DNA from: Candidatus Moraniibacteriota bacterium
GTDB lineage: Bacteria; Patescibacteriota; Minisyncoccia; Moranbacterales; UBA1568
Length of the DNA: 64,000 nucleotides
Direction of reading: 5' to 3'
Assembly (NCBI GenBank): GCA_052034935.1
Contig: JBPOIB010000001.1
Coordinates: 172,173 to 236,172 of the forward strand
In this document: positions 33,868 through 63,277 of the stretch, one piece after another
Position numbering within the stretch: the stretch's first letter is position 1
How the letters are laid out: each line of letters begins with the position of its first letter
Notes under the pieces: model-generated
The model's database searches: none
What the model was told of the DNA's origin: nothing
Seen by the model: only the letters and a program-made list of their open reading frames with translations
Program-made: the position numbers and the translations under genes

Positions 33868-34389
33868 CGTTTCGCCACCCAGGCGCCGTAAGTCGTCTTT
33901 CAACCACGAGGGGATAGCCAACGCGCTGTCCCCTCGAATCATATCCAGGAGAAAGCCATGCTTGGATTGCGCATTGAAGCAGCCCTGGTGTTCGAAGTGA
34001 TTGCCCTTATCGAATATCGTTCAGATTTCCCGCCCAACCCCGTCCTCCACACGTCCAATCTACATACATCGCCGCAACTGCTGCTTGGGAATCCGTTCGA
34101 GGATTCACTCTTCGAATCAGCTGATGTGGCGGCTGATGTCCAGCGCTTTCGGCTCGGCCGCATCCGCTTGCCACTCGTTCCCGAGAGGCGCTACGGTCCG
34201 CCGTCCTATCGGCGCTGGCCTTCCGCATCAACCAATCGTCGCGAGCGAGGGAACCGTTGCCAGCGCTGAGCATCGCCCCTGTACGTCGCATTCCGTTTGC
34301 GCTAGGATAGGGCTGTTTCAGAAGTCCTGCTCATTCCCAAAACAAGATTTTCTCGGAGACATATCACCCCGCAACTACCGGAGTCATCC

Positions 34390-34698
34390 ATGAATGCCGA
34401 ACTTTCGGTGTCCACCCATCCCATCTTCCCAGGCACCCGCGTACCTTGTCCCTCAGCAGGGAATCACCTCCTGCTCAGTGCTGCCGCCCTGCGCGAGCGC
34501 TCGGCCGCCTGTGTTACCTGCGGCGTTCGGGGACCGTGCCGGACGCTGTATGCGCCCGAAGCTGCCGCTCCCGACTCGTGCTGGATCGCCATGGCAGTGA
34601 CGCGTGACCAGTCCAGGTGTGCTGACTGCTCCGTCCGCGAACCGTGCCATGACCTCGTCGCCGAGCTTGCGGCTATCGCCCGCCGCGCGGGGCATTGA
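34390..34698 (+). CDS. small protein with two tandem WhiB-like Cys motifs (CxxCxVRxPC), hypothetical
   Basis: GGAG RBS; C41VTC44GVRGPC50 and C77ADC80SVREPC86; TAGGAT motif upstream. Confidence 0.4.
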   Translation: MNAELSVSTHPIFPGTRVPCPSAGNHLLLSAAALRERSAACVTCGVRGPCRTLYAPEAAAPDSCWIAMAVTRDQSRCADCSVREPCHDLVAELAAIARRAGH

Positions 34699-34773
34699 AC
34701 CCCGGTGCGAAAGAAACTCGCGTCCGCCCAAAGGAACGCTTTCCTGAGGGCTTTTTTCATACCCAAATTAGAG

Positions 34774-34800
34774 TTAGCACTCACACTTGACGAGTGCTAA
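34774..34800 (+). promoter_or_regulatory. CIRCE operator (HrcA binding site)
   Basis: Perfect TTAGCACTC-N9-GAGTGCTAA inverted repeat. Confidence 0.9.
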
Positions 34801-34816
34801 AACTGGATTTATACTG
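34787..34816 (+). promoter_or_regulatory. sigma-70-like promoter TTGACG-18-TATACT overlapping CIRCE
   Basis: -35 within the CIRCE right arm, -10 TATACT 25 nt before the hrcA ATG. Confidence 0.6.
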
Positions 34817-34840
34817 GAGACACAGAACGGTGAAATCGTT

Positions 34841-35596
34841 ATGAACATGAATGAACGACAACGCGAAGTGCTCTCGGCTGTGGTCGAGCTGTACACGAAA
34901 ACGGCGCTCCCGGTCGGCTCCGAAGCCCTGCTCGAACGGCATCATTTTCCGGTGAGCTCGGCGACACTCAGGAACGACATGCTCGCCCTCGAGGAAATGG
35001 GCTATCTCTATCAGCCCCATACTTCCGCGGGGCGCATCCCAACTGATGCCGGCTACCGTTTCTATGTCGAGGAGATGATGGGCGACAAGCCGCTCTCGAA
35101 GAAAGACCAGCTTCACCTTCAAGAAGAGTTTTTGAAGCTCCAAGCGAAGCATAACCGCACCGTCCGCACCACCGCCCGTCTTCTCTCGGCCCTCTCGGGC
35201 AATCTGGGGGTTTCGGGAATGGTCGGCAAAGATGAAATCTATGATTTCGGGATGAAGTCCCTCATGGAGAGCCCGGAATTCCGCGAAATGGATGATCTCT
35301 GTCGGCTTGTTGAGACCCTCGATACGCTCGATGAGAAGATTGATGTCCTCGTCGCTGGACTGAAAGATGGTGAGACACGCATCTTCATCGGCGAAGAGAA
35401 TCCGGTCCGCGGTATCGAGAACTGTGCGATGGTGGTGTCACCCTACCGCGATGAGAATGGGGATCGCGGCATGCTCGCCATCATCGGTCCGAAGCGGATG
35501 GAATACGCCAAGAACAAGTCGCTCATCGAATCGATGCGCCGCCTCCTCGGATCGTCCCTCGTCATCGTGATCGTCACTCAGGCACCGTTATGGTAA
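34841..35596 (+). CDS. hrcA: heat-inducible transcription repressor HrcA
   Basis: N-terminal winged helix ERQREVLSAVVELYTKTALPVGSEAL; CIRCE immediately upstream; ATG 34841 lies within ORF 34787..35596. Confidence 0.9.
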   Translation: MNMNERQREVLSAVVELYTKTALPVGSEALLERHHFPVSSATLRNDMLALEEMGYLYQPHTSAGRIPTDAGYRFYVEEMMGDKPLSKKDQLHLQEEFLKLQAKHNRTVRTTARLLSALSGNLGVSGMVGKDEIYDFGMKSLMESPEFREMDDLCRLVETLDTLDEKIDVLVAGLKDGETRIFIGEENPVRGIENCAMVVSPYRDENGDRGMLAIIGPKRMEYAKNKSLIESMRRLLGSSLVIVIVTQAPLW

Positions 35597-35598
35597 CG

Positions 35599-35730
35599 AT
35601 GGCATCAGAGCCGGAACAGGAAGCCGGTGAGCCGGAAGAAACCATTGATGATAGCCGGCCGCTCACCGAAGAAGAACGTCAGAAACTCTTCGAAGCCGCC
35701 AAAAGCGCCATGACCCGAACCTCATAATAA
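35599..35730 (+). CDS. small acidic protein, hypothetical
   Basis: 43-aa ORF (MASEPEQEAGEPEE...) in the 140-nt gap between hrcA and the grpE fusion; below the ORF-track cutoff. Confidence 0.2.
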
Positions 35731-35738
35731 AAAACCCT

Positions 35739-36653
35739 ATGACCCAAGAAAAACAATCGAGCCTGGTCAAGTACGAGCAGTTCCAGCTTAGCCAGAAGGC
35801 GGTAATCTATTCGAAGACGACGAAGAAGTTCCTTCTCTTGAAGGATGCTGAGCCGGAGTCCGAATACGTCGCGAAGTATGGTCTCTGGGACTTGCCGGGC
35901 GGGCGGCTCGAGAAGGGCGAAGCGCTGCCATCCTCCTTCGAGCGTGAGCTTCGCGAGGAGATTGGTGATTTAAAATACGAGCTTCGCGATATCGTGTACG
36001 CCACGACAGTCTCAATTCCCTTGGACGATCCAGAGAGCCCGAACCGCGTTCGCCTCATCTCTCTCGCGACGACCGAAGACGATACCGTCACGCTTTCCGA
36101 CGAGCACACCGAAGCCGCCTGGAAGACGTTCGAAGAAATCGACGCGGATGCCGATTGCGGCGAGTGGCTGAAGCGAGCGGTCACGGCAGCACTGACGACG
36201 CTTCGGGCAGAGGAGGGTGCCAATGACACCCTTCGCATCCTCGCTGACTTCGAGAACTACAAGAAGCGAGTGAAGAACGATGAACGCGAGCTCTACGGTC
36301 ACCTGACGGCCCAAATCGTCAATGAGCTCATCCCAGTCCTCGACAATTTCCACGCCGCGACGGGTCATGTCCCGGCCGATGCGGCGGGCAGCCCCTGGGT
36401 CACCGGCATCACCTATATCGAGAAGCAGTTCGAGGATGTACTCGCCAATTACGGGGTAACGCCGCTCGACGTCAAACCCGGCGATGCCTTCGACCCGACT
36501 CGCCACGAAGCCCTCGATCACAAGGCCGCAGCAATGAAAGAAGGAGAGCTGGAGGGGGAGAAAAAACTCGTTATCGAGAAAGTCGTCCAGAAAGGCTATC
36601 TCATCAAAGACAAGCTCGTCCGCCCCGCCAAAGTGATCGTGACCGAAGCTTAA
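35739..36653 (+). CDS. grpE: NUDIX hydrolase-GrpE fusion protein (nucleotide exchange factor GrpE with N-terminal NUDIX domain)
   Basis: N-terminus has Nudix box GGRLEKGEALPSSFERELREEIGD; C-terminal 170 aa LRILADFENYKKRVKNDERE...KGYLIKDKLVRPAKVIV is canonical GrpE. Confidence 0.8.
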   Translation: MTQEKQSSLVKYEQFQLSQKAVIYSKTTKKFLLLKDAEPESEYVAKYGLWDLPGGRLEKGEALPSSFERELREEIGDLKYELRDIVYATTVSIPLDDPESPNRVRLISLATTEDDTVTLSDEHTEAAWKTFEEIDADADCGEWLKRAVTAALTTLRAEEGANDTLRILADFENYKKRVKNDERELYGHLTAQIVNELIPVLDNFHAATGHVPADAAGSPWVTGITYIEKQFEDVLANYGVTPLDVKPGDAFDPTRHEALDHKAAAMKEGELEGEKKLVIEKVVQKGYLIKDKLVRPAKVIVTEA

Positions 36654-36706
36654 AAACGTGTATGTACCAGATCCGAATCCAAAACCAGAAAGGAGGTGAG
36701 AACCAT

Positions 36707-37120
36707 ATGACACGCCATCTTATTCCGTTCCCGACGAATGATCTCAGTCGTTTCTTCGACCCTGAGCTCTTCGCTTCGGGCGAATTCTTCCCGGCACTCG
36801 ACATCTATCAGGACAAGGATAATGTCGTCGCTGAGCTCGCGCTCCCGGGTATCGATCCGGCCAAGGTCGACATCACCATCGAAAATGATGTCCTGACCGT
36901 CTCCGGGTCCACCGAGAGCAAGGAGGAAGTGAAGCGCGAGGACTACTACCGCAAGGAGGTCCGCACCGGCAGCTTCTCCCGCTCCGTCGTCCTCCCGATG
37001 GCCGTGAAGGGGAATGACACCCAAGCCGAGTATGACAAGGGTGTTCTCACCATCACGATGCCGAAGGAGGAATCCGTGAAGCCGAAGAAGATCGCCGTCC
37101 AGATTAAGGACGCGAAGTAA
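36707..37120 (+). CDS. Hsp20/alpha-crystallin family small heat shock protein
   Basis: AGGAGG RBS; ALDIYQDKDNVVAELALPG...DVLTVSG...GVLTITMPK alpha-crystallin domain. Confidence 0.9.
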   Translation: MTRHLIPFPTNDLSRFFDPELFASGEFFPALDIYQDKDNVVAELALPGIDPAKVDITIENDVLTVSGSTESKEEVKREDYYRKEVRTGSFSRSVVLPMAVKGNDTQAEYDKGVLTITMPKEESVKPKKIAVQIKDAK

Positions 37121-37224
37121 CCGGGCTCCGCGCTCGGCCGCCTCAGAAGTCTGGGGCGGCTCATGAGCGGAGTTCGCTCGAGACAAAACGTTCCATTCGT
37201 AATTAATGTAAGTTGAATAATCGT

Positions 37225-39177
37225 ATGTCAAAGATACTCGGTATTGACCTCGGGACGACCAACTCGGCGATGTCTATCGTCGAAGGCGGCAGCCCTAGCG
37301 TCATCGAAAACAAGGAAGGCAATCGCACCACGCCCTCGATGGTCGCGATGTCGAAGACCAATGAGCGCCTCGTCGGCCTCCTCGCCAAACGTCAGTCCGT
37401 CACCAACCCGGAGAACACGCTCTTTTCCGTGAAGCGCCTCATCGGGCGCCGGTTCGAGGACGACGAGGTGCAGCGTGATATGAAGACGCTGCCCTACAAA
37501 GTCGTGAAGAGCGGCGAGGGGACGAAAGTCATCATGGGCGGCAAGGAATACACCCCGCAGGAAATTTCTGCCATGGTGCTCCAGAAACTGAAAGCCGATG
37601 CCGAAGAGAAGCTCGGCGAGAAGATCACCGATGCGGTCATCACCGTCCCAGCCTACTTCGACGATGCCCAGCGCAAGGCGACGATGGAAGCCGGTGCGAT
37701 CGCGGGCCTCAATGTCCGCCGCATCATCAATGAGCCGACCGCGGCGGCCCTCGCCTATGGTTTCAACAAGAAGAAAGACGAAAAGATCGCGGTCTATGAC
37801 CTCGGCGGCGGTACGTTCGACATCTCCATCCTGGAAGTCTCCGAAGACACGGTCGAAGTGAAGTCGACCAATGGCGATACGCATCTCGGCGGCGACGACT
37901 TCGACCAGCGCGTCATCCACTGGATCCTCGACGAGTTCAAGAAGCAGGAAGGCCTCGACCTCTCCAAGGATCCGCTCGCGCTCCAGCGCATCAAGGAAGC
38001 GGCAGAGAAGGCGAAGATCGAGCTCTCGACTGCTCAGGAATCCGAAATCAATCAGCCGTTCATCACGAGCGGAGCGGACGGTCCGAAGCACCTCGTCATG
38101 AAGCTCACCCGCGCCAAATTGGAAGAGCTCGTCGGTGACCTCGTCACAGGAACGCTCGAGCCGGTGAAGAAGGCGCTCGCCGATGCGAAGCTCTCCGTCT
38201 CTGACATCAATGAAGTCGTCTTGGTCGGAGGAATGACGCGCATGCCGCTCGTCCTCGCGACCGTCGAGAAATTCTTCGGCAAGAAACCAAATATCAGCGT
38301 GAACCCGGATGAGGTCGTCGCGATCGGCGCGGCCATCCAGGGTGGTGTGCTCGAGGGGAGCGTGAAAGACGTTCTGCTTCTCGATGTGACGCCGCTCACC
38401 TTCGGGATCGAAACGCTCGGTGGTGTCCGCACCCCGCTCATCGACCGCAACACGACTGTCCCAGTCTCAAAGAGTCAGACCTTCTCGACCGCCGCTGACA
38501 ATCAGCCACAAGTCGAAATCCATGTGCTCCAGGGCGAGCGTGAGATGGCTGCTGACAACAAGTCGCTCGGCCGCTTCGTCCTCGATGGTATCCCACCAGC
38601 GCCGCGCGGCATCCCGCAAATCGAAGTCAATTTCGACATCGATGCGTCGGGTATCCTCTCGGTGACGGCCAAGGACAAGGCGTCCGGCAAGACCCAGAGT
38701 ATCCGCATCGAATCGTCCACCGGACTTTCCAAGGACGAGATCGAGCGCATGAAGAAAGATGCCGAGCTCCACGCCGAGGAAGACAAGCGCAAGAAAGAGC
38801 TCATCGAAGCGCGCAATATGGCCGACACGCTTTCCTACACGACCGAGAAAGCGATGAAGGACGCGGGCGACAAGCTCACGGCCGAAGAGAAGAAGCCGGT
38901 CGAGGAAGCCATCGCCCAATTGGCCAATGTGAAGAATGGCGACGACCTCGAACAGATCAAGCAGAAAACCGAAGCGCTCTCGCAGGCTGCGCAGAAGATC
39001 GGCGAGAAGCTCTACAAGGCCGCCCAAGAAGCGCAGGCTGCCGCTCAGCCAGCCGCAGGTGCCCAGTCTGGTACCGAAGCTCAAACGGGCTCAACTGCTG
39101 AAGCTCCCAAGGATGCAGAGGTAGAAGAAGCGCCGAAAGCCGCAGGTACTGAGCCTGTCGAAGGTGACAAGAAGTAA
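37225..39177 (+). CDS. dnaK: molecular chaperone DnaK
   Basis: [30 protein letters not shown] motifs; 650 aa. Confidence 0.95.
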
Positions 39178-39238
39178 GGAGTAGAATAGGAGCAGGGTTT
39201 CGGCCCTGCTTCTCTTCTTATCCAGTATCCACACGCTT

Positions 39239-40201
39239 ATGCTCGAACGTATCAAAACCATCTTCTACCGGCCGGAGTTCTTCCGGGACCAGCGCTTCAC
39301 GACGAATCAGGCGCTCAGCTTCTACTCGTTCGTCATCCTCGCCTACGTCATCCTCACGCTCTTCACGATGCTGCCGGGAGCGGCGGCTGCCCTCCAGTCG
39401 ATGCGTTCGGGCGAGTGGCAGACGCAAAAGGGGATCGTCGCCAGCCTGTATCCCGAGAATCTGCAGGTCACCGTGAGCCAAGGTGCGGTCTCGACCAATC
39501 AGGCCGGTCCGAGCGTCATCGCCGTCCCGTCGGCCTGGAAGCTCGCGGCCCATCCCGAGCCGGCCTTTCCGATCGACAATCTCGTCGTGATCGATACGAG
39601 CCGGCCGGTGACGCCGGCGACGCTCGAAGACGCGAAGACCGTCGTCCAGATCGGTCAGCACGAAATTGGTTTCCGCAATCCGGAACGCGGCGAGACGCGT
39701 ATCTTCAACCTGAAGGAAGCGAAATTCGACCGGAGTTTCACCCTGACCGCACCGATGTTCCGGGAGGGGATTGAGAAGGGGTTCAAAGCGCTCCAGATCG
39801 GTTTCTTCGCGCTCCTGTTTGTCGTCCCGGCAGTGCTCTACGTTGCCCTCTGGATCGGCTACCTCCTCTATAGCCTCTTCGGCGCGCTCGTCGTCTGGGT
39901 CGCGGCCAATGTCCGGGGGCAGACACTCCGCTACGGTCAGGCCTACCGCTCGGCGCTCTACCTCCTCGCCGGCCCACTCGCGCTCAGCTTCCTCATGTCG
40001 CTCGGCAATGTCCACATCCCGTTTGTGTTCACCCTCGTCCTCTTCGGCATGGCGTTCCTGAATTTCTCAGGAGTTCAGACGAAAGACTCTGAGCCCGTCG
40101 ATGAGCCAAAAGTAGAAAAGCTCCCCGAACCGGTAAAGATTGCTACTGCAGAAGCTCCTAAGGTTGCGGAAAAGCCGGTTGAATCGAATGAAAGTAAGTA
40201 A
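39239..40201 (+). CDS. hypothetical polytopic membrane protein
   Basis: 320-aa ORF, N-terminal TM, periplasmic-like middle, 3-4 C-terminal TM helices, Lys/Glu/Pro-rich tail. Confidence 0.55.
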   Translation: MLERIKTIFYRPEFFRDQRFTTNQALSFYSFVILAYVILTLFTMLPGAAAALQSMRSGEWQTQKGIVASLYPENLQVTVSQGAVSTNQAGPSVIAVPSAWKLAAHPEPAFPIDNLVVIDTSRPVTPATLEDAKTVVQIGQHEIGFRNPERGETRIFNLKEAKFDRSFTLTAPMFREGIEKGFKALQIGFFALLFVVPAVLYVALWIGYLLYSLFGALVVWVAANVRGQTLRYGQAYRSALYLLAGPLALSFLMSLGNVHIPFVFTLVLFGMAFLNFSGVQTKDSEPVDEPKVEKLPEPVKIATAEAPKVAEKPVESNESK

Positions 40202-40243
40202 ACAGGCGGGCCCTTTCGGGCCCGCTTTGTTACCGAGTGTAGT

Positions 40244-40825
40244 ATGAATATATCCTTCTTAGAAAAAATTCCTTATAGAAAAGAGGTATTTTTACTTACC
40301 TACGGGTTTATTCTTACTGGTATTATTGGCGCGATCATAACGTTCGGACTACAGTCTGCATCGTGGAGATATCAAAATAATTCTGCAAAGCTAGAGAAAG
40401 AGCTTAATGTAGCCTCTGATGTTTTTGAACAAATTAGTACAGTAACCGACAAGCGCATCTATAGAATGGATAAGCTTGACCGTTGGCTGGTAGATGGAAC
40501 AGACGATGTAATGATTAATAATCTGATGCGGGAGTATAGGGATGTTCTTTACGAATGGAATGACTCATACAATAAAAATAAGGCTCTCGTAAATTTATAC
40601 TTTGGTACTGAAGTGTCTGCCCGTTTCGACTACATTCATTTCTTCTTTAAACAAGTAGGAAAAGACTTAGAGACCCAATATTACCTATCTTCAGAGAATC
40701 GTAATCAAGAACAGTTAGTTCAAATTGGAAATAGAATTGGTGATTTGAATAACATCGCACTTGAAATCAACGAGGGGATGATAAAGAAAATCCAAGCGCA
40801 GTCAGTCGGATCTTTTCAAAAATAA
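40244..40825 (+). CDS. hypothetical membrane-anchored protein (AT-rich island gene 1)
   Basis: 193 aa, one N-terminal TM; about 33% GC against about 60% in flanking genes. Confidence 0.5.
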   Translation: MNISFLEKIPYRKEVFLLTYGFILTGIIGAIITFGLQSASWRYQNNSAKLEKELNVASDVFEQISTVTDKRIYRMDKLDRWLVDGTDDVMINNLMREYRDVLYEWNDSYNKNKALVNLYFGTEVSARFDYIHFFFKQVGKDLETQYYLSSENRNQEQLVQIGNRIGDLNNIALEINEGMIKKIQAQSVGSFQK

Positions 40826-40871
40826 AAGTATAGCTGTAAACGCATACAATCACCACTACTCAGAAAAATAT

Positions 40872-41396
40872 ATGTATCAAATTCGTATCCTCGCTGATGA
40901 TGGGTTAATAAAAAAGGAATATCGGACTGAACTTGAAGATATATTTCGGAAATCAGGATTGAATTTTGAGTATGTAGAATGTGATACACACGCAAAGGGT
41001 GGTGTAATTTGGTTTGCAACTGGATTAATAATTGCAGCTGTTGGAATGACTGCTCAAGGATTTTTCTCCGCTGTGGGTGAAGATCTTTATAAAAAACTCA
41101 AAGAGTTAATTAAGGACTCTTTAAAAAATCCACCGGAAAATACTCCGGGCATTGGAGTAGCTTATATATCCTTTATAAACGACGGTATTGAATTCTATTT
41201 TGAGTTTAGTGAGTTCATGATGGATAACTACGACGAGGCATCTTCTAGAATACTTGCAGATAATGATAGAATCGCGTCTGAGTTTAGGATAATTTCAAAG
41301 AAAGAGTTAGAGAACATACACGGGGAATTCACGAGTGTTACTTTAAGGTTCGATGAAAATAGTCGGCGATGGATTGTAGCGCACTACAATTTATAA
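40872..41396 (+). CDS. hypothetical protein (AT-rich island gene 2)
   Basis: 174 aa, one internal hydrophobic segment; about 35% GC. Confidence 0.5.
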   Translation: MYQIRILADDGLIKKEYRTELEDIFRKSGLNFEYVECDTHAKGGVIWFATGLIIAAVGMTAQGFFSAVGEDLYKKLKELIKDSLKNPPENTPGIGVAYISFINDGIEFYFEFSEFMMDNYDEASSRILADNDRIASEFRIISKKELENIHGEFTSVTLRFDENSRRWIVAHYNL

Positions 41397-41404
41397 GTAA
41401 GCAT

Positions 41405-41713
41405 ATGAAATTCATCATCATCTACATCACTCATGCGGATATGAGGGCGGCGAAGAAGGTCGTGGAGGCATTGCTCCGCGATAAGCTCATCGCTTGCGCG
41501 AATTATTTCCCTATCGAGAGCGCGTATTGGTGGAAAGGGGAAATCACAAATGCCAAGGAAATCGTCTCGATCGTGAAGACCAAGAAATCAAACTGGACGA
41601 AAGTAAAGAAGGCGGTCGAGGTCATCCATCCCTACGACACTCCGTGCATCATGAAATTCGAAGTCGAATCCAACAAATCCTACGCCGACTGGATCCACAC
41701 CGAAACAAAATAA
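41405..41713 (+). CDS. cutA: divalent-cation tolerance protein CutA
   Basis: KLIACANYFPIESAYWWKGEI...HPYDTPCI matches the CutA1 family signature. Confidence 0.8.
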   Translation: MKFIIIYITHADMRAAKKVVEALLRDKLIACANYFPIESAYWWKGEITNAKEIVSIVKTKKSNWTKVKKAVEVIHPYDTPCIMKFEVESNKSYADWIHTETK

Positions 41714-41750
41714 AAAAATAGTTCAATGGAGTTAACCAATTGAACTATTT
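41712..41750. terminator. bidirectional terminator
   Basis: A7-AGTTCAATGG-loop-CCAATTGAACT-ATTT. Confidence 0.5.
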
Positions 41751-41833
41751 GGGGTGGGTTGGCCTTGGGCCAGTCTGGCGGGCGGCGGCCGCGCCAGCGT
41801 GCCGACCAGTGGTCGCTTTCCATGACGGTCTCC

Positions 41834-42142
41834 TTACTTGCTGACTTCGTAACCCTTCAGACCGCCGAGGGTCTTCAGGACTGTATCAAGATTGAGTCCG
41901 TAGACTCGGATCTCCTGCTTGCCGAGCTTGGTCAAGACGGTCAGGAGAATGCTGCTGCCATCGTTCGCCGCCTTCACCCGCTTGCCGGCGTAGCGAATCG
42001 GCTTGCCGCTCGCGGTGATGTAGCCGGGGGAGCAAGTGCCGCCCGCTTTGGTGACGGCGTTGACGATGGGTATGGCCGCTTCGGTCACGCTATCGTGGCG
42101 ACCGACGAGGCCGGATGTATCTAACTTCATGTGTTGCTCCAA
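41834..42142 (-). CDS. hypothetical protein
   Basis: 102-aa ORF; beta-rich Gly/Lys composition. Confidence 0.45.
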   Translation of the reverse strand: MEQHMKLDTSGLVGRHDSVTEAAIPIVNAVTKAGGTCSPGYITASGKPIRYAGKRVKAANDGSSILLTVLTKLGKQEIRVYGLNLDTVLKTLGGLKGYEVSK

Positions 42143-42248
42143 AAGGACGTGATTCGGCTGCAGCCGACCCTGGTTAGTGAAGATTCACCAACATAATATC
42201 ATAGCACTTTTTAATGATAAAATCAAGTGCCAGGTAGTATTTTAAGAC

Positions 42249-42284
42249 AAATGAAAAACGGCAGGTCGGATGACACTGCCGTCT
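42249..42284 (-). terminator. conserved hairpin terminator repeat, copy 1 (minus-strand reading: ACGGCAG-loop-CTGCCGTTTTTCATT)
   Basis: Plus strand AATGAAAAACGGCAG-gtcggatgaca-CTGCCGT; 35 nt beyond the stop of gene 42318..42737. Confidence 0.7.
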
Positions 42285-42317
42285 TGGATGCTAGCGTGGC
42301 AAACACGGATGAGTGGT

Positions 42318-42737
42318 TCACTCGGCAGCCTTCCATTCGAAGTGCAGCCAGTGGAAATGGCGCCCATTGCGCGGCACCAGGTTGGGGAGGGTGATGGCCT
42401 TCGATCGGCTCGGAGTACCTTCGACGATAAACCGATCGGCGCGTTCGGCGCCGCGGATGAGTGCTTCGCGGAGTTGGGCAGCCGAGAGTTCGTACTGGTG
42501 GTGCAAGACGATCTCGGCCATGATGCGAAGGATGACCGATTCGTATTCGCTGGCGATTAGCCAGTCGCCATTTTCAAATTCGAGTGCCGTGAGCCGGAGC
42601 GGCGGAAGCGCTGCTTCCGTCAAGAGGGCGATGGCGAAGCCCTCAGCGGCTTCTTCGATGGCGGAGCGGTAAATCGCGGCTTCGAGGCGGCGGATAGCTT
42701 CGTTTCGAGTGACCACGAGGAATCTCCTGGTTGGCAA
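42318..42737 (-). CDS. hypothetical protein
   Basis: 139-aa ORF with a TTG start; followed by its own repeat-terminator. Confidence 0.4.
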   Translation of the reverse strand: MPTRRFLVVTRNEAIRRLEAAIYRSAIEEAAEGFAIALLTEAALPPLRLTALEFENGDWLIASEYESVILRIMAEIVLHHQYELSAAQLREALIRGAERADRFIVEGTPSRSKAITLPNLVPRNGRHFHWLHFEWKAAE

Positions 42738-42778
42738 AGAATACTTTGAAACTACCGTATCCCTCTCTTGCCGTCAAA

Positions 42779-42815
42779 AATGAAAAACGGCAGAACTTTC
42801 GAGGTCCTGCCGTCT
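42779..42815 (-). terminator. conserved hairpin terminator repeat, copy 2
   Basis: AATGAAAAACGGCAGAAC-tttcgag-GTCCTGCCGT; 30 nt beyond the stop of gene 42845..43402. Confidence 0.7.
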
Positions 42816-42844
42816 TGTTGTGCCAGCGGTTGCCGGCGAGTGCT

Positions 42845-43402
42845 TCAGGCAGCGAGACGTTCTTCACCATGGATGGGATGCCAGGCACGGAAGGCGCGGA
42901 GCGGTTCATTCGCCCGGACCGCCTCGATCACTTCCTGCGCCGGCGGTTGGTACAGGTAGAGCGTGACCGGGAGGAAGCTCTCGGCCATCGCTGAAAGGAT
43001 CTCTGCGTGATCCGCCCGGTCGCGCTTGCCTATGCGGCCGGTGCCGATCCGGACGCTGGAGTAACGCCGGCTACCTTCCGTCTGCCACAGGTAATCGAGC
43101 CCGAAACGGACGTAGCGATGAGCACCCTTCCAGCCATGCTCGCCGAGCGAGTGGCAGATGAGCATGTGAACCTGGCGGTCCGAGTTGAACTGGAAGCTGA
43201 GCACGCTGCCGAGGACGATCGGGTAGGCGACCGAAATCTTCTTGACGAAGGGGAGACCGATGCCGGTCACGTCCGAGAGTTCGCTGTTCATGCCGATGAT
43301 GATGTCGGCTCGGTTGTCCGGGCTGGTGATATCGCCTTGGACGATGTCTTTGATCACGGTTGTCTCCAAAGAGCTTGCCGGTTGCGGGATGCATCCGGAC
43401 AT
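42845..43402 (-). CDS. macro-domain-like protein (putative ADP-ribose binding/processing), low confidence
   Basis: GDITSPDNRADIIIGMNSELSDVTGIGLPF resembles the macro-domain N-terminal GDIT...DAIVNAAN pattern. Confidence 0.4.
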   Translation of the reverse strand: MSGCIPQPASSLETTVIKDIVQGDITSPDNRADIIIGMNSELSDVTGIGLPFVKKISVAYPIVLGSVLSFQFNSDRQVHMLICHSLGEHGWKGAHRYVRFGLDYLWQTEGSRRYSSVRIGTGRIGKRDRADHAEILSAMAESFLPVTLYLYQPPAQEVIEAVRANEPLRAFRAWHPIHGEERLAA

Positions 43403-43457
43403 GGGAGTACCTTAGCAGAAAAAGAGGCACTGTCAAGAGTCTCCAGTCACCTGAGAA

Positions 43458-43490
43458 AATGAAAAACGGCAGGTCGGTTGACTTGCCGTT
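43458..43490 (-). terminator. conserved hairpin terminator repeat, copy 3
   Basis: AATGAAAAACGGCAG-gtcggttgact-TGCCGT; 43 nt beyond the stop of gene 43533..43886. Confidence 0.7.
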
Positions 43491-43532
43491 CGTGTGTGCC
43501 GATGGTGAGGCTGGTGGTGCTGCTGCGGGCGT

Positions 43533-43886
43533 CTAGGCGATGACCAGGGCGTCAACGAGTTCGGGCTTGCCCGTTGGCCCGACGCCGTCGAATTCGGCCA
43601 CGACACCGCCGGCGGGGAGCTGAATCTCCTTGCCGTCGATCCGGAGGAGATGGATGTGGAGCCGGCCGCCGAAGGCGCCGTTCCTTTCCTCGGGATAGAA
43701 ACGGGCCTCGATGCGGGTACGGCGGTCGTTCGGCTGTACCGGGCAATCCTTGATGGCGAGGTTCGGTCCGTCGACGTCGATGACTTCGCTGACGTCGAGG
43801 CTCAGGCTGTTGGCATCGAGACCGTAGCCGAGGAAAAGGGTGAAACGAAGCGCTTGGCGGGCGTAGTCAGCAGGCATTTGATCCAT
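43533..43886 (-). CDS. hypothetical protein
   Basis: 117-aa ORF with an ATG start; own repeat-terminator. Confidence 0.45.
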   Translation of the reverse strand: MDQMPADYARQALRFTLFLGYGLDANSLSLDVSEVIDVDGPNLAIKDCPVQPNDRRTRIEARFYPEERNGAFGGRLHIHLLRIDGKEIQLPAGGVVAEFDGVGPTGKPELVDALVIA

Positions 43887-43973
43887 GATGTCTCCGAAAG
43901 AACGGGGTTGGTCGGCCGGGCGATTCCTGGCCGAATGAGATAAATCTGCTACAAAAATCGATTTTCGTCAAGG

Positions 43974-44010
43974 GAAAATGGAAAATGGCAGAGCTTTGGG
44001 GCGCTGCTGT
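43974..44010 (-). repeat. degenerate copy of the hairpin terminator repeat (orphan)
   Basis: AAAATGGAAAATGGCAG-agctttggggcg-CTGCTGT; no minus-strand gene upstream of it. Confidence 0.4.
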
Positions 44011-44066
44011 TGAGAAGGTGTACAATAGGGGTGTTGAACGTCTTTTAATCAGTAAGCGGCCGGCTT

Positions 44067-44234
44067 ATGGATAAAGTAAAAATTGAGAATCACAGTTTCA
44101 CGGGGTTCTCCTGGTTTGCGGGGTGGCTCTTCACCATCGGATTCCTCGGTCTCTCATTTGGAAAGGGGTTGCTCGCCGTTCTCCTCTGGCCGTACTATAT
44201 CGGCCAGTACGTGAGCGGTATCGTCGGGAGCTAG
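44067..44234 (+). CDS. small membrane protein, hypothetical
   Basis: 55-aa ORF with two hydrophobic helices; below the track cutoff. Confidence 0.25.
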   Translation: MDKVKIENHSFTGFSWFAGWLFTIGFLGLSFGKGLLAVLLWPYYIGQYVSGIVGS

Positions 44235-44300
44235 AAGTAAATATCGTGCTGGTCAAAGAGTCAGCCGATAAGCTGAGAGATTTTTTAAAGCCGTAAATAT

Positions 44301-44591
44301 ATGACCAAACCAGAGCAACAAATCCAGATAAAGGCGACGGATGAAGTTTTGAAAGGAGTCTATTCCAATATGGCTCATATCTCGCATACGGGAGAGGAAT
44401 TTATCCTCGATTTTCTCTCAGTCTATCCGCCGACTGGGAGTCTGAACGCTCGTGTCATCATCAGCCCGAGCCATATGAAACGTATGGTAGCTGCTCTCGC
44501 GGACAATCTGGCCAAGTACGAAAAGCAATTCGGTTTGATCAAGGCGAGCGACGCGCCAACCACGGCACCGATTGGGTTTTCAGAAAAATAA
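44301..44591 (+). CDS. hypothetical protein, DUF3467-like
   Basis: VYSNMAHISHTGEEFILDF resembles the DUF3467 core as I recall it. Confidence 0.5.
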   Translation: MTKPEQQIQIKATDEVLKGVYSNMAHISHTGEEFILDFLSVYPPTGSLNARVIISPSHMKRMVAALADNLAKYEKQFGLIKASDAPTTAPIGFSEK

Positions 44592-44604
44592 GCTGCCTCT
44601 CAGT

Positions 44605-45150
44605 ATGCTGCACTATGTTCTTTTTGGTCTCCTCTTCATGGTTGTCGGGGAGTTCTTGGTGAATGTCGTCTTCAAAGAGACGCTCGCCGGCTTCTTCGGT
44701 ACGCTCATCCTGTATGCAGTCATGCTCACGCTCGCGTATCCGGTCACGCGGCTCGGCAAAAAACTGCTCAAGATGTCAGGCTATTTTCTGACCTCGATGA
44801 TCATTCTCTTCGGCAGCTTGGGACTTTTCGTCATGGAATGGGTAATCATTGGTAACTCTCCGTGGGGGAATCCTGACGCAAGCCAGATTGCGATGTTCAT
44901 CTGGTGGGCGGGTGTGTTCGTTTTTCCGCTTCTCTGGGGCGAAGCGCTGCCCGTCCTTCAATTGATTCGCCGCCGGTCTTTGCAATACCATGCCGTGTAT
45001 ATGGGGACGCTCGTTGCTATGATGCTGCTCATCCCATTCATCCCGATGATGAAACCGCTCTCGCTGTTCGTCTTCACTTACGGACTTTTTCCTTACGGGT
45101 ATTTTTTGGGCGCCTCTGTCTGGCTCGTGAGAAAATCACCGTCTGAATGA
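44605..45150 (+). CDS. hypothetical polytopic membrane protein
   Basis: ATG 44605 within ORF 44572..45150; 6 predicted TM helices. Confidence 0.5.
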   Translation: MLHYVLFGLLFMVVGEFLVNVVFKETLAGFFGTLILYAVMLTLAYPVTRLGKKLLKMSGYFLTSMIILFGSLGLFVMEWVIIGNSPWGNPDASQIAMFIWWAGVFVFPLLWGEALPVLQLIRRRSLQYHAVYMGTLVAMMLLIPFIPMMKPLSLFVFTYGLFPYGYFLGASVWLVRKSPSE

Positions 45151-45527
45151 AAGAAAAAGCCCGGGCGGAGTGCCTAGGCTTCGTGCGGCGATTGCATCGC
45201 CAAAGAACTACTTGTTGTCGCTTGTGCCGCTGCCCCACTCGGCTTCGTCTCTCGCCGTCCAGACCATCCTGGACCCCGTTCCTTTCTTCGCCCGCGGAGG
45301 GTGCACAGCCACCTTGGCTCGCTTCCGGCGAAAACGGATTCGCTTGGGTATGAGCGCGAGGATACTTGTCATGAGCATGAGAACGAGCAAATTATGCCCT
45401 GTCTTCACGGAGTCTCCTTGTGGTGATTTTGAGAGTCAGTAACCAGCCTATGAAATAGGTAACAGAGATAATAACACATTACCTCTTTTCGGTCAATGTT
45501 AAAGCGGTTCTATCAAGAGAGCGGGTC

Positions 45528-45565
45528 AATGAAAAACGGCAGAACTTTGTGGGGTTCTGCCGTTC
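45528..45565 (-). terminator. conserved hairpin terminator repeat, copy 5
   Basis: AATGAAAAACGGCAGAAC-tttgtggg-GTTCTGCCGT; 40 nt beyond the stop of the GNAT gene. Confidence 0.7.
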
Positions 45566-45604
45566 GTGTTTGCCGACGGTTTTCGGCGTATGCGGCTGGC
45601 CTTC

Positions 45605-46129
45605 TCAATGCGATACCTGTCCGAGTTCGAAGCGGTAGACGTTGGCGCTCTCTTCATCACCCGGGAGAGCCGGCTGGATCAGCCGGAATCCGAGTTTCTC
45701 GAACAGCCGATTGGCTTCGACTCGCTTCGCTTTTGATCGAAGCTCGACGTGGGGGAGATGCCGACCCTTCGCCTCTTGCAGGGCCGCTTTGACGAGGATC
45801 TGTCCGATGCCGCGTCGCCGGCAATCGCCTTTCACGACGAGGTCATGGATTTCTCCGTGCCGCTCGACGCCGGGCGTAACGACCAGCCTCGCGATCCCGA
45901 GCATCTTGCCGTTGTCAGACAAGTCGACAGCAAGAAGGCAATCACTCCCTCTCGCCAGCGCCTGAATGGCCTCGAATGTGACCTTGTCCCTTGGATAGGG
46001 GGACAGTTCGCAGTAAAGATCAACGAGATGGGCTTTTCCGTCGCCAGTGAACCGCCACGGTTCAAACCCGGCGTCGTGCTCGACACTTACGTGATGGTGC
46101 ATGGACAACTCCAGTGTGTGAGGGGACAA
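45605..46129 (-). CDS. GNAT-family N-acetyltransferase
   Basis: Acetyl-CoA binding motif RRRGIGQILV...ANRLFEKLGF. Confidence 0.75.
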   Translation of the reverse strand: MSPHTLELSMHHHVSVEHDAGFEPWRFTGDGKAHLVDLYCELSPYPRDKVTFEAIQALARGSDCLLAVDLSDNGKMLGIARLVVTPGVERHGEIHDLVVKGDCRRRGIGQILVKAALQEAKGRHLPHVELRSKAKRVEANRLFEKLGFRLIQPALPGDEESANVYRFELGQVSH

Positions 46130-46283
46130 AAATAGCTTCCGTTGAAGCCGATAGTTCCATTCTTACTCTCGCCGGGCTCGTTGGTCAAGATTCTTATGAC
46201 ACGGAAGGGAAGCAGCCTCTCTTCCGAGAAAAGACCCGATCAACATGGTGTTCGGGCCTAAGAGATTGGCGTAGAGTGTCCTC

Positions 46284-47474
46284 TTACTGTGGATTTCTTT
46301 TCATCGTCCGCGAGAGTCCGACGAGTGCGAGACTCCCGAGAGCGAGAAAGACCGTACCGCTCGTGAGGAGTGCCACTTGGAGTGAAACCGCATCGTGGAT
46401 CCATCCCATGATCGGACCGAGAGCCGAAAAGAGCAGTCGTGCCAAGAGATTCTTCACCGAGAGTACGGTCGCCCGGATTTCTGAATCAATCAGGCCGTTG
46501 ATGTAGTCCGAGAGGATCGGACCGTGGACACCGCGTGTGATGTAGAAGAGTGCGATGATGGCGGCCGCCGCAAGTGACCCGGCCATCCCGAGGAAGAGAT
46601 ATCCGGTAGCAGGAAGCATGATGAGGGCGATGAGCGACCCGCGTTTTCCGAGTCGCTCTTCAATCGCGTGCGCGTGCCAAGAGCACGATGCTCCGACGAG
46701 CTGGAACGTGGCCCAGACGATGCCGAAGTAAGTGAGTGGTAGCCCGGCCTGCTGGAGGTAGGGCTGGGTGAACCAGACCATAGTGAGCGTCGATGCGCCC
46801 ACAGTAGCGGAGTAGAGGCAGAGCCACTTGATTTCGCTATGGTCATGAAGCGCGTACTTGGCGAGACGCAACATGTCACGGAAGGCGCTTCCCTTCGAGA
46901 TGAGCTGTTGCCGTTTCGGTTCGACGATTGAGAGAGCGAGCGGGATGAGTGCCAGCATGATGATGGCCTCACAGTAGAGCGGAAAGCGCAGACTGATGAG
47001 AGCTAGCGCCCCGCCGAGAATGCTCGCGATGCTTTCCGAGACCATGGCGAGGCTCGTGTTGCGCCCTTCGATGCGCTTGTGCTCGTCGGTCCGACCCATT
47101 TCTCGGAGCGAATCGTAGAGGAGGGCGGATTCGGTCCCAGATAGGAAACTCGCGCCGAACCCGAGGAGAATTTCTGCGAGGAGGAATCCCCAGAACCCAG
47201 TCCCGATCGCATAGACGCCGTGTCCAATGACGCCGAGTGTGCAGCCGATGATGATCGAGGTCCGGCGACCGAAGCGATCCGAGAGATAGCCGGTCGGAAC
47301 TTCGAAAGCGATCACCGCGATTGAGAAGAGCGATTGAAGGAGGAACACCTGCGAGAGAGTCAGCCCGTTCTCCTGGAAGAAGAGCACAATGACCGGGATG
47401 ATGAGCATGAAGCTCCGGATTGACCGGATGACAGCGATCTTCCAGAGATTATCGGAAACGCGTCCGTTTGGCAT
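46284..47474 (-). CDS. MFS-type transporter
   Basis: 12 TM helices; typical loop 2-3 motif (DRFGRR). Confidence 0.75.
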   Translation of the reverse strand: MPNGRVSDNLWKIAVIRSIRSFMLIIPVIVLFFQENGLTLSQVFLLQSLFSIAVIAFEVPTGYLSDRFGRRTSIIIGCTLGVIGHGVYAIGTGFWGFLLAEILLGFGASFLSGTESALLYDSLREMGRTDEHKRIEGRNTSLAMVSESIASILGGALALISLRFPLYCEAIIMLALIPLALSIVEPKRQQLISKGSAFRDMLRLAKYALHDHSEIKWLCLYSATVGASTLTMVWFTQPYLQQAGLPLTYFGIVWATFQLVGASCSWHAHAIEERLGKRGSLIALIMLPATGYLFLGMAGSLAAAAIIALFYITRGVHGPILSDYINGLIDSEIRATVLSVKNLLARLLFSALGPIMGWIHDAVSLQVALLTSGTVFLALGSLALVGLSRTMKRNPQ

Positions 47475-61655: not shown

Positions 61656-61727
61656 TGGGGAGTAGCCAAGCGGTAAGGCAGTGGGTTCTGGTCCCACCAT
61701 GCGAAGGTTCGATCCCTTCCTCCCCAG
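61656..61727 (+). tRNA. tRNA-Gln (anticodon CUG)
   Basis: TGGGGAG-TA-GCC-AAGCGGTAA-GGC-A-GTGGG-TTCTGGT-CCCAC-CATGC-GAAGG-TTCGATC-CCTTC-CTCCCCA-G; U1:A72 and short D-stem as in bacterial tRNA-Gln. Confidence 0.85.
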
Positions 61728-61728
61728 C

Positions 61729-62267: not shown

Positions 62268-62543
62268 GTGAGTTTGCTACTTCGAGTTATGGACTTAGAT
62301 CCTCAAAAGCTTTATCTGCTGATACTGGGCGCGACATCACTGGTATGTTCAAAGTTGTTCTTTTTCTTGCTCGACGATCCGGAAGGCCCTAATCTACTCA
62401 TCATCACTTGGTTAGCGGTCATCCTATATCTTCCATCTCTGGCAGTGTATGCCGCCCTTGGTTTCGAAAATTCCAAAAAGCTTCTATCGGTAGTCCTTCT
62501 TCAGCTGACGGTGATCACTTGCCTCTACTTTGGCTTGAAATAG
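62268..62543 (+). CDS. small membrane protein, hypothetical
   Basis: 91 aa, three hydrophobic helices. Confidence 0.35.
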   Translation: MSLLLRVMDLDPQKLYLLILGATSLVCSKLFFFLLDDPEGPNLLIITWLAVILYLPSLAVYAALGFENSKKLLSVVLLQLTVITCLYFGLK

Positions 62544-62630
62544 ACTGGCCATCGCTCATGGCAGAAAATGGTTTTTTCTGCCATTCTAGAATAGTAGCAG
62601 AAACCCAGATGACAGAATTCGGAATATTGT

Positions 62631-63251: not shown

Positions 63252-63277
63252 AAGTACCGGGCACGCTTTGTTATCTT

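What the first reader, a model, noticed from the sequence alone, without database searches (positions are those of the whole stretch)
40244..41396. Strongly AT-rich two-gene island (about 33-35% GC) embedded in a roughly 60% GC neighbourhood
Genes 40244..40825 (N-terminal TM anchor plus helical domain) and 40872..41396 (internal hydrophobic segment) have a composition and codon usage unlike flanking genes; dnaK and the 39239 gene are over 60% GC. They have no recognisable domains and sit between the dnaK operon and cutA. Composition points to recent horizontal acquisition. Small membrane-protein pairs of this kind are typical of abortive-infection, toxin-immunity or other defence cargo, though that role is only an inference.
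Basis: seen in the sequence. Interest (0 to 1): 0.55.

Follow-up and report, generated by a model that had tools for sequence, protein, structure and literature searches.

The report
Swappable AT-rich gene cassette beside cutA
Two orphan genes with far lower GC than their neighbours fill a strain-variable slot between the dnaK gene cluster and cutA in a Candidatus Moraniibacteriota genome; a different species carries the same cassette almost base for base, so this is an ordinary, recently transferred accessory cassette, not a demonstrated defence system.

Summary
Genes A (40244-40825, GC 35.7%) and B (40872-41396, GC 36.2%) have the lowest GC3 of 75 ORFs in a 54% GC window. Recent horizontal transfer is strongly supported. 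A second Moraniibacteriota lineage carries A+B at the same site. The block 40192-41412 is 98.2% identical between the two, while the flanking dnaK, DUF1189 and cutA genes are only 43-87% identical. The closest relative found (flanks 88-90% identical) has an unrelated AT-rich gene in the same slot. The slot is therefore a cargo hot spot between conserved genes. It has no integrase, no tRNA and no convincing flanking repeats. The idea of a membrane-protein pair or toxin-immunity system is not supported. A and B belong to separate families that occur together nowhere else. A is a stand-alone membrane-anchored three-helix protein from an unannotated family of more than 200 members, some fused to peptidoglycan-binding domains. 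B is predicted to be a soluble alpha/beta protein. Its four distant homologues with readable context all lie next to or near defence-type genes: PDC-S57, a Cas4-like nuclease, a type III methyltransferase and a weak KAP/PifA-like NTPase match. Neither protein matches any PADLOC, Pfam, PHROGs or NCBIfam model above threshold, or any solved structure or phage or plasmid record significantly. Function remains inferred.

The parts
39239..40201 (+). Left flanking conserved gene: a DUF1189-family membrane protein, the last gene of the hrcA-grpE-hsp20-dnaK cluster. It is native to the genome (GC 0.599, GC3 0.78).
   Evidence: Pfam DUF1189 at 6.1e-10. It is 90% nt identical to L034 and 43-71% identical per 100 nt to L001.
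40192..41412 (+). The recently exchanged block. It runs from the last bases and stop codon of the DUF1189 gene through the hairpin, gene A, the spacer and gene B to the first 8 nt of cutA.
   Evidence: There are 22 mismatches over about 1220 nt against L001 (98.2% identity). Mismatches are dense on both sides of the block.
40198..40233 (+). GC-rich hairpin followed by TTTGTT. It is probably the terminator of the upstream cluster and lies inside the exchanged block.
   Evidence: Inverted repeat I3. Folding energy -23.5 kcal/mol, z = -4.0. The terminator scan reports it on the minus strand. The homologous sequence in L034 is degenerate and does not fold.
40244..40825 (+). Gene A, 193 aa. It has an N-terminal transmembrane anchor (about residues 15-37) followed by a three-helix bundle. 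It belongs to an unannotated family of more than 200 proteins with conserved DKRxYRM and WNDxxNxNxA motifs.
   Evidence: Against L001 there are 8 synonymous and 4 non-synonymous codon differences.
40826..40871 (+). The A-B intergenic spacer, 46 nt, identical in the window and L001.
40872..41396 (+). Gene B, 174 aa. It is predicted to be a soluble alpha/beta protein and belongs to a small family (8 representatives at E<1e-10) with conserved DTHAKGG..WFP.DLII and RWxIAHFN motifs.
   Evidence: Against L001 there are 4 synonymous and 3 non-synonymous codon differences, one of which changes the stop codon to Leu.
41405..41713 (+). Right flanking conserved gene cutA (native, GC3 0.66). It starts 8 nt after B's stop codon and is probably co-transcribed with A and B (inference).
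   Evidence: Pfam CutA1 at 1.3e-29. It is 90.3% nt identical to L034 and 79.6% identical to L001.
41716..41750 (+). Perfect 12-nt inverted repeat after cutA, probably the terminator of an A-B-cutA transcription unit.
   Evidence: Inverted repeat I7. Folding energy -13.8 kcal/mol, z = -4.0.

Best explanation
The feature is a 1.2-kb AT-rich accessory cassette. It sits in a strain-variable slot between two conserved genes of a Candidatus Moraniibacteriota (CPR/Patescibacteria) genome: the DUF1189 gene that ends the hrcA-grpE-hsp20-dnaK cluster, and cutA. The cassette was exchanged recently between different Moraniibacteriota species. It encodes no recombinase. It replaces or is replaced by other AT-rich cargo at exactly the same boundaries, the stop codon of the upstream gene and the start codon of cutA. 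The most likely route is recombination of imported DNA at these short conserved edges (inferred). The two genes are unrelated passengers, not a two-component system. A is a membrane-anchored three-helix-bundle protein that most likely works at the membrane/cell-wall interface, because about 15% of its relatives carry a C-terminal peptidoglycan-binding domain. B is a soluble alpha/beta protein whose distant relatives live in defence islands. Shown: the composition, the boundaries, the recent transfer, the alternative cargo in the slot, the independence of the two families, and signs of purifying selection. Inferred: co-transcription with cutA, the recombination route, and any envelope or defence role.
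For: Composition: A and B have the two lowest GC3 values of 75 ORFs. Recent transfer: the window and L001 are 98.2% identical over 40192-41412, against 76-87% in dnaK, 43-71% in the DUF1189 gene and 72-82% in cutA. The same structure appears in three independent assemblies, L001-L003. Alternative cargo: L034 is the closest relative found (dnaK 87.6%, DUF1189 90.1%, cutA 90.3%). In the same slot it has one unrelated 217-aa gene with GC 0.369. L006 has a divergent A-like gene (56% aa identity) directly after the dnaK terminator. No mobility signature: only one copy of the cutA 5' sequence in the window, no convincing flanking repeats, and no tRNA nearby. Real genes under constraint: the A family has more than 200 members with invariant motifs and the B family has 8 representatives below 1e-10. 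Synonymous changes outnumber non-synonymous ones, 8:4 in A and 4:3 in B. Independence of A and B: A homologues in more than 15 loci share no conserved neighbour. A-like genes are consistently lower in GC than their hosts, including an Alphaproteobacteria locus at 0.41 against 0.67. PG_binding_1 fusions occur in 8 of 45 sampled members. The B model is globular. B-like genes lie beside PDC-S57 (4.8e-74), a Cas4-like nuclease (1.5e-10) and a weak KAP/PifA-like NTPase match (1.8e-6), and one gene away from a type III methyltransferase (1.5e-14). Precedent: many HGT hot spots lack mobile elements and lie between core genes (PMC5635113), and HGT is frequent among Patescibacteria (PMC12455944).
Against: The recombination route was not demonstrated. 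The high-identity block ends exactly at the gene boundaries, and no stretch of donor-like flank is retained. Classical homologous recombination in long flanks would be expected to leave such a stretch. No donor was identified. Neither protein has a homologue in INPHARED phages, PLSDB plasmids or IMG/VR contigs. No functional assignment came from PDB or BFVD fold searches or from PDB sequence profiles. The topology of A is unresolved: the PG-binding fusions suggest an outside location, but the charge bias in most family members predicts a cytoplasmic domain. The defence association for B rests on only four distinct contexts.
Confidence: 0.8

Rival explanations
1. A and B form a dedicated two-component defence module, such as abortive infection or toxin-immunity. 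A would be the membrane effector and B its partner or sensor.
For: A and B are adjacent, on the same strand, and separated by a 46-nt spacer that is identical in two species. They sit in a slot with rapid cargo turnover. B homologues lie next to or near defence-type genes. In L027 a non-homologous protein with a hydrophobic N-terminus (read by eye from its sequence) sits directly upstream of the B-like gene. A retron-type reverse transcriptase lies about 4 kb from the slot in L034.
Against: A and B co-occur only in the near-identical copies of this one cassette. More than 15 A-like loci have no B-like neighbour, and none of the four B-like contexts read carries a recognisable A-family gene beside it. 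There is no PADLOC hit for either protein. B is predicted to be soluble. A-family contexts are not enriched for defence genes.
Confidence: 0.12
2. A and B are an old native gene pair whose low GC has resisted amelioration.
For: Related genomes L001-L003 carry A+B at the same position with the same low GC. An A-like gene follows dnaK in L006.
Against: The pair is 98.2% identical where the flanks are 43-87% identical. The closest relative, L034, lacks both genes and has other cargo in the slot. The A-like gene in L006 is closer to homologues from other genomic contexts (68% to P0005) than to the window's A (56%).
Confidence: 0.04
3. The cassette is a remnant or moron of a prophage, plasmid or integrative element that decayed and lost its integrase.
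For: The composition is AT-rich, the genes are orphans and the context varies. One A-family member with a PG-binding domain lies about 4 kb from a Phage_integrase gene in L033.
Against: There are no hits to 50,697 phage records, 72,556 plasmids or IMG/VR contigs. BFVD fold matches all have E>0.009. There is no integrase, att-like repeat or tRNA at the site. Only weak PHROGs hits were found (E>0.01).
Confidence: 0.08
4. The island is an assembly or binning artefact: foreign AT-rich reads joined into the contig.
For: The source is a metagenome-assembled genome. L034 is labelled Undibacterium, which shows that labelling and binning errors occur in these data.
Against: The same junctions, with Moraniibacteriota genes on both sides, occur in the 399-kb window contig and in three independently assembled contigs.
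Confidence: 0.01

Closest known systems
HGT hot spots between core genes that lack mobile genetic elements (Oliveira, Touchon, Cury & Rocha 2017, PMC5635113)
   Same: The flanking genes are conserved (DUF1189 and cutA). The gene content of the interval differs among related genomes: A+B in the window, A+B plus extra genes in L001, and gene X in L034. No integrase or transposase is present, and turnover is rapid.
   Different: Only four or five genomes could be compared, so turnover was not measured statistically. Recombination tracts in the flanking core genes were not seen; the block ends at the gene boundaries.
Defence islands and core-gene-flanked defence hot spots (e.g. the E. coli pan-genome survey, PMC10121019)
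   Same: The slot is variable and holds orphan AT-rich cargo. B homologues lie beside or near PDC-S57, a Cas4-like nuclease, a type III methyltransferase and a KAP-type NTPase. A retron-type RT lies near the slot in L034.
   Different: Neither A nor B matches any of the 5027 PADLOC models. No defence function was tested. A-family contexts are not defence-enriched.
Classical tRNA-associated genomic islands and integrative elements
   Same: The composition deviates from the genome, and presence is patchy among relatives.
   Different: There is no integrase, no tRNA, no flanking direct repeats beyond a 7-nt AAGTAAG match that chance could explain, and the island is only 1.2 kb.
N-terminally anchored helical-bundle proteins (LemA PF04011; 4HB chemoreceptor sensor domains)
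   Same: Protein A has one N-terminal transmembrane helix that continues into a long antiparallel helical bundle. The best structural matches include 4HB ligand-binding domains at TM-score about 0.5-0.55.
   Different: There is no sequence match to LemA or 4HB_MCP models. All Foldseek E-values exceed 0.006. A has three helices rather than four, has no second transmembrane helix, and carries its own invariant motifs.

Membership tests
HGT hot spot flanked by core genes | The same two conserved genes flank the interval in related genomes. | tested here: met
   The DUF1189 gene and cutA flank the slot in the window, L001, L003 and L034.
HGT hot spot flanked by core genes | The gene content of the interval differs among related genomes. 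| tested here: met
   The window has A+B. L001-L003 have A+B, an RmlD-like gene and a 107-aa ORF. L034 has an unrelated 217-aa gene.
HGT hot spot flanked by core genes | Homologous recombination tracts are present in the flanking core genes. | tested here: inconclusive
   The high-identity block stops at the stop codon of the DUF1189 gene and 8 nt into cutA. No extended donor-like flank is seen.
Classical genomic island / integrative element | An integrase or recombinase lies within or beside the island. | tested here: not met
   The block contains only A and B, and neither has a recombinase domain. The rest of the window was not fully scanned for recombinases.
Classical genomic island / integrative element | Flanking direct repeats (att sites) and a tRNA or tmRNA target are present. 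| tested here: not met
   No repeat of 11 nt or more brackets the island. The only shared sequence is a 7-nt AAGTAAG at both ends. The nearest tRNAs are at 2660, 58638 and 61656.
Known anti-phage defence system (PADLOC-DB v2) | The proteins match a defence-system model. | tested here: not met
   Zero families for A and for B at E up to 10.
Two-gene toxin-immunity / toxin-antitoxin / Abi pair | The two families co-occur across unrelated genomes. | tested here: not met
   There is no conserved neighbour of A in 15 or more loci. None of the B-homologue contexts L024, L027, L028 and L029 carries a recognisable A-family gene beside the B-like gene.
Two-gene toxin-immunity / toxin-antitoxin / Abi pair | One gene is toxic and the other neutralises it. 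| not testable with these tools
   This needs expression experiments.
Integron-type gene cassette | An attC-type imperfect palindrome at the cassette 3' end and an IntI integrase with attI nearby. | tested here: not met
   There is no hairpin between B and cutA; the gap is 8 nt. The only strong hairpin is 5' of A and is homologous to the terminator position in relatives. IntI was not searched for across the whole window.
LemA (PF04011) / 4HB_MCP sensor domain, for protein A | The sequence matches the family model. | tested here: not met
   Pfam lists neither family for A (E up to 1), and neither is among the families matched by the 45 family members (E up to 0.01). Structural matches are generic helical bundles with E>0.006.
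Tautomerase / MIF superfamily, for protein B | The beta-alpha-beta fold matches with a significant score, and the catalytic N-terminal Pro1 is present. | tested here: not met
   The best Foldseek hit has E = 4.6e-3 and TM-score 0.34. B starts MYQ, with no Pro at position 2.
CutA1 (PF03091), for the right flanking gene | The Pfam model is matched above the gathering threshold. | tested here: met
   102.3 bits against a cut-off of 22.4.

The most novel reading that the evidence does not exclude
The slot between the DUF1189 gene and cutA could be a site-specific cassette-exchange locus of CPR bacteria, served by an unknown recombinase acting in trans. The conserved first 20-26 nt of cutA would act as the attachment site. 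L001 carries three direct copies of this sequence bracketing successive inserted genes, and cargo always abuts the cutA start codon within 6-8 nt. Under this reading A, B and gene X would be new anti-phage or host-interaction genes.
Probability: 0.1. Interest if true: 0.7.

Novelty: new member of a known kind. Interest (0 to 1): 0.35.

Why it matters
The finding gives a clean, base-resolved example of recent gene-cassette exchange between distinct Patescibacteria species at a recombinase-free hot spot. It also flags two unannotated protein families as candidates for accessory envelope or defence functions in organisms that cannot yet be manipulated genetically. The first is a widespread family of membrane-anchored helical proteins, sometimes fused to peptidoglycan-binding domains. 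The second is a small family resident in defence islands. The phenomenon itself, AT-rich orphan cargo in a hot spot flanked by core genes, is well known.

Tried and rejected
- Pfam, PADLOC, PHROGs and NCBIfam scans of A and B gave nothing above threshold.
- Profile searches of both families against PDB sequences found nothing below E = 0.08.
- Foldseek of the A model against PDB and BFVD, and of the B model against PDB, gave only generic or weak matches.
- tblastn of A and B against INPHARED phages and PLSDB plasmids found no match.
- IMG/VR scans with both family alignments found no relatives.
- Rfam at E<=1 over 39-49 kb gave only chance-level hits.
- The sigma-70 promoter scan found no plus-strand promoter upstream of A, and the number of sites did not exceed shuffled controls.
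- The idea that a copy of the cutA 5' sequence flanks the island on the left was rejected: the window holds one copy only.
- Gene X of L034 is not a divergent B: hhalign probability 0.7%.
- Long repetitive 'homologues' of B (e.g. P0131, 1761 aa) look like tandem-repeat proteins matching by composition and were discarded.
- A conserved partner for the A family was sought by all-vs-all BLAST of neighbours in 19 loci, and none was found.

Full report
**1. Observation**

Gene A (40244-40825) has GC 0.357 and GC3 0.356. Gene B (40872-41396) has GC 0.362 and GC3 0.314. The window mean GC is 0.544. The 500-nt window at 40501 (GC 0.346) is the global minimum of the window, about 4.4 sd below the mean. 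Among 75 non-overlapping ORFs, A and B have the two lowest GC3 values, with z = -2.9 and -3.4.

The flanking genes are native by composition. dnaK has GC3 0.76. The 39239-40201 gene matches Pfam DUF1189 and has GC3 0.78. cutA has GC3 0.66. cutA starts at 41405, 8 nt after B's stop codon. A strong GC-rich hairpin at 40198-40233 (-23.5 kcal/mol, z = -4.0) separates the DUF1189 gene from A. A second hairpin follows cutA at 41716-41750. The layout is therefore: terminator, A, B, cutA, terminator. This suggests that A, B and cutA are co-transcribed, which is an inference.

**2. Organism and relatives**

Near-identical copies of A and B are annotated in Candidatus Moraniibacteriota MAGs. Three independently assembled contigs, L001-L003, carry dnaK, DUF1189, A and B in the same order as the window.

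Per-100-nt identity between the window and L001 is 76-87% in most of dnaK and 43-71% in the DUF1189 gene. It then jumps to 97-100% across the island and falls back to 72-82% in cutA. The mismatch map places the block at 40192 to about 41412, with 22 mismatches (98.2% identity). Mismatches are dense immediately on both sides. The block begins at the stop codon of the DUF1189 gene. It includes the hairpin, A, the spacer (46 of 46 nt identical) and B, and it ends 8 nt into cutA.

Within the block, codon differences are 8 synonymous to 4 non-synonymous in A. In B they are 4 synonymous to 3 non-synonymous, one of which changes the stop codon to Leu. My rough estimates from these counts are dS of about 0.03-0.06 and dN/dS of about 0.15. 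That is consistent with functional genes shared far more recently than the surrounding genomes diverged.

**3. The slot is variable**

The cutA and DUF1189 proteins have relatives at 90% identity or more. One such contig, L034, is labelled Undibacterium sp. but has the same hrcA-grpE-hsp20-dnaK-DUF1189-cutA gene order as the window. It is the closest relative found: dnaK 87.6%, DUF1189 gene 90.1% and cutA 90.3% nt identity. In the same slot, and again ending 6 nt before the cutA start codon, L034 carries one unrelated 217-aa gene with GC 0.369 and GC3 0.28. That gene has no Pfam or PADLOC match and no similarity to B.

In L001-L003, A and B are followed by three further elements:
- a truncated copy of the cutA 5' end,
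- an RmlD-like gene followed by a second cutA 5' copy,
- a 107-aa ORF, after which the intact cutA follows.

L001 therefore holds three direct copies of ATGAAATTCATCATCAT.TACA. The window has one copy.

L006 is a third lineage, with dnaK 81% identical to the window. It has a full-length A-like gene (56% aa identity to A) immediately after the dnaK terminator. That gene is extended at its C-terminus by a tail containing two hydrophobic stretches that I read by eye as transmembrane segments. It is closer (68%) to A homologues found in other genomic contexts than to the window's A.

Taken together, this is a cargo hot spot between conserved genes, not a one-off insertion. No integrase, tRNA or convincing flanking repeat is present. 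The only shared sequence at the two ends is a 7-nt AAGTAAG, which chance can explain. This matches the class of hot spots without mobile elements described by Oliveira et al. (PMC5635113). It also fits the reported frequency of HGT among Patescibacteria (PMC12455944).

The route of exchange is inferred. The block retains the ancestral terminator position, so the donor had the same locus. However, no donor-like tract extends into the flanking genes. Crossovers must therefore have occurred within very short conserved edges, or a site-specific process is involved.

**4. Protein A**

A profile of the first ten homologues recovers 207 proteins at E<=0.01. Most are 190-210 aa and none has a Pfam domain over the homologous region. 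Family-wide invariant residues define DKRxYRM and WNDxxNxNxA..YFG motifs.

Members occur in Gaiellaceae and other Actinomycetota, Desulfobacteraceae, Calditrichia and Alphaproteobacteria MAGs, as well as in contigs resembling the window genome. Eight of 45 sampled members carry a C-terminal PG_binding_1 domain.

The AlphaFold model has pLDDT 90 and pTM 0.73. It shows one very long helix (12-84) that contains the membrane anchor, followed by helices 88-146 and 155-184. Foldseek against PDB and BFVD returns only generic helical bundles with E>0.006.

The gene is stand-alone. In more than 15 loci no neighbour family recurs. Contexts include positions after uvrB, mutL, a Ham1-like gene and an SNase gene, a position beside a convergently transcribed S1-P1 nuclease gene, and a position near an integrase. 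In most loci read, the gene has lower GC than its host:
- 0.35-0.38 against neighbours of roughly 0.40-0.59 (most of them 0.45-0.59) for the close subfamily,
- 0.41 against 0.67 in an Alphaproteobacteria locus,
- 0.41 against 0.58 in L030.

In Gaiellaceae the gene looks native, with GC3 of 0.8-0.9.

Topology is unresolved. The peptidoglycan-binding fusions argue for an extracytoplasmic domain. Most members, including those fusions, have a 3-4-residue uncharged N-tail and 3-4 Lys/Arg after the anchor, which predicts a cytoplasmic domain. The close subfamily that includes A has the opposite bias.

My working reading, at low confidence, is that A acts at the membrane/cell-wall interface.

**5. 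Protein B**

The word-indexed search found only the near-identical copy. The exhaustive phmmer search found 17 hits, 8 of them below 1e-10 and with 33-39% identity. They share the DTHAKGG..WFP.DLII...GFF.A.G.D.Y.KLK motif and the C-terminal RWxIAHFN motif. The long repetitive hits look compositional.

The model has pLDDT 86.7 and pTM 0.84 and is a globular alpha/beta fold. The hydrophobic segment forms strand 52-57 and helix 61-85. In homologues that segment contains Asp, Glu or Lys, which argues against a transmembrane helix. PDB matches to tautomerase/MIF-like beta-alpha-beta proteins are weak (E>=4.6e-3, TM-score <=0.34).

The four distinct contexts of B homologues are all of defence-island type:
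- L024: beside a T5orf172 gene matching PADLOC PDC-S57 at 4.8e-74.
- L025-L027: beside a P-loop NTPase with weak matches to PADLOC PifA (1.8e-6) and Pfam YobI-ATPase (1e-4); I read it as KAP-like.
- L028: beside a Cas4-like PD-(D/E)XK nuclease.
- L029: one gene away from a type III methyltransferase (1.5e-14).

This is guilt by association from a small sample.

**6. Verdict**

That inference is now backed by an identity discontinuity and by alternative cargo in the closest relative. Its logic fails because those orthologues are nearly identical in sequence.

The picture of a pair of small membrane proteins forming a toxin-immunity or Abi module is not supported. The two families are independent, B is probably soluble, and no defence model matches. 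A defence or envelope accessory role remains the most reasonable guess for hot-spot cargo, but it is untested.

The finding is an ordinary example of a known phenomenon. It is of modest extra interest because of three things: the precision of the cassette boundaries, the triple cutA-5' copies in L001, and the large unannotated A family.

Noticed in passing
window 42249-42281, 43457-43495, 47776-47808 (+ strand); also L034 about 9319-9358: There are three direct copies of a 35-40-nt motif, AAATGAAAAACGGCAGGTCGGTTGAC.CTGCCGT, which contains a hairpin (ACGGCAG/CTGCCGT). None is expected by chance. Copies 1 and 2 bracket two minus-strand ORFs with no Pfam match (42318-42737 and 42845-43402, GC about 0.61). 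No Rfam family matches.
   Followed up: partly
window 41714-44300: A second variable region lies directly downstream of cutA. The window has four high-GC minus-strand ORFs with no Pfam or PADLOC match. L001 has a 476-aa gene there. L034 has a 2_5_RNA_ligase2 gene and others, before the shared DUF3467 gene.
   Followed up: partly
L001 3383-3423, 4284-4324, 4828-4868: There are three direct copies of the first 41 nt or so of cutA. The first, after gene B, encodes a truncated window-type CutA N-terminus. The copies bracket an RmlD-like gene and a 107-aa ORF. They could be scars of repeated insertion at the cutA start, or att-like sites.
   Followed up: partly
window 35739-36653: The window's grpE encodes a NUDIX-GrpE fusion of 304 aa (NUDIX 9.6e-12, GrpE 2.9e-33). 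The close relative L034 has a plain 187-aa GrpE.
   Followed up: no
L034 10972-12072: A retron-type reverse transcriptase gene (Pfam RVT_1 1.8e-15; PADLOC retron RT models down to 5.9e-24) lies about 4 kb downstream of the slot in the closest relative. The blastn comparison of window 34000-48000 with L034 found no match to this gene.
   Followed up: no
L006 2764-3621: An A-like gene lies directly after the dnaK terminator. Its C-terminal extension of about 95 aa contains two hydrophobic stretches that I read by eye as transmembrane segments. The public gene call (P0009) starts too late and misses the N-terminal half.
   Followed up: partly
L017 5941-6567: An Alphaproteobacteria MAG locus with GC 0.67 holds a single A-family gene with GC 0.41 and GC3 0.335. 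This is another sharp AT-rich one-gene island.
   Followed up: partly
L034 (GCA_041730415.1, JBGSBW010000002.1): The contig is labelled Undibacterium sp. (Betaproteobacteria). Its gene order and its 88-90% nt identity to the Moraniibacteriota window indicate a mis-binned or mislabelled contig.
   Followed up: no
window 40192-40198 and 41395-41401: The same 7-nt sequence, AAGTAAG, sits at both ends of the 98%-identity block. This is compatible with chance or with a microhomology junction.
   Followed up: partly
window 12254-12718 and 62268-63778: These are other ORFs with lower GC. ORF 12254-12718 has GC3 0.41 and no Pfam match. A region at about 62.3-63.8 kb, starting about 0.5 kb downstream of tRNA-Gln (61656-61728), includes a HAD hydrolase gene with GC 0.43.
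   Followed up: no
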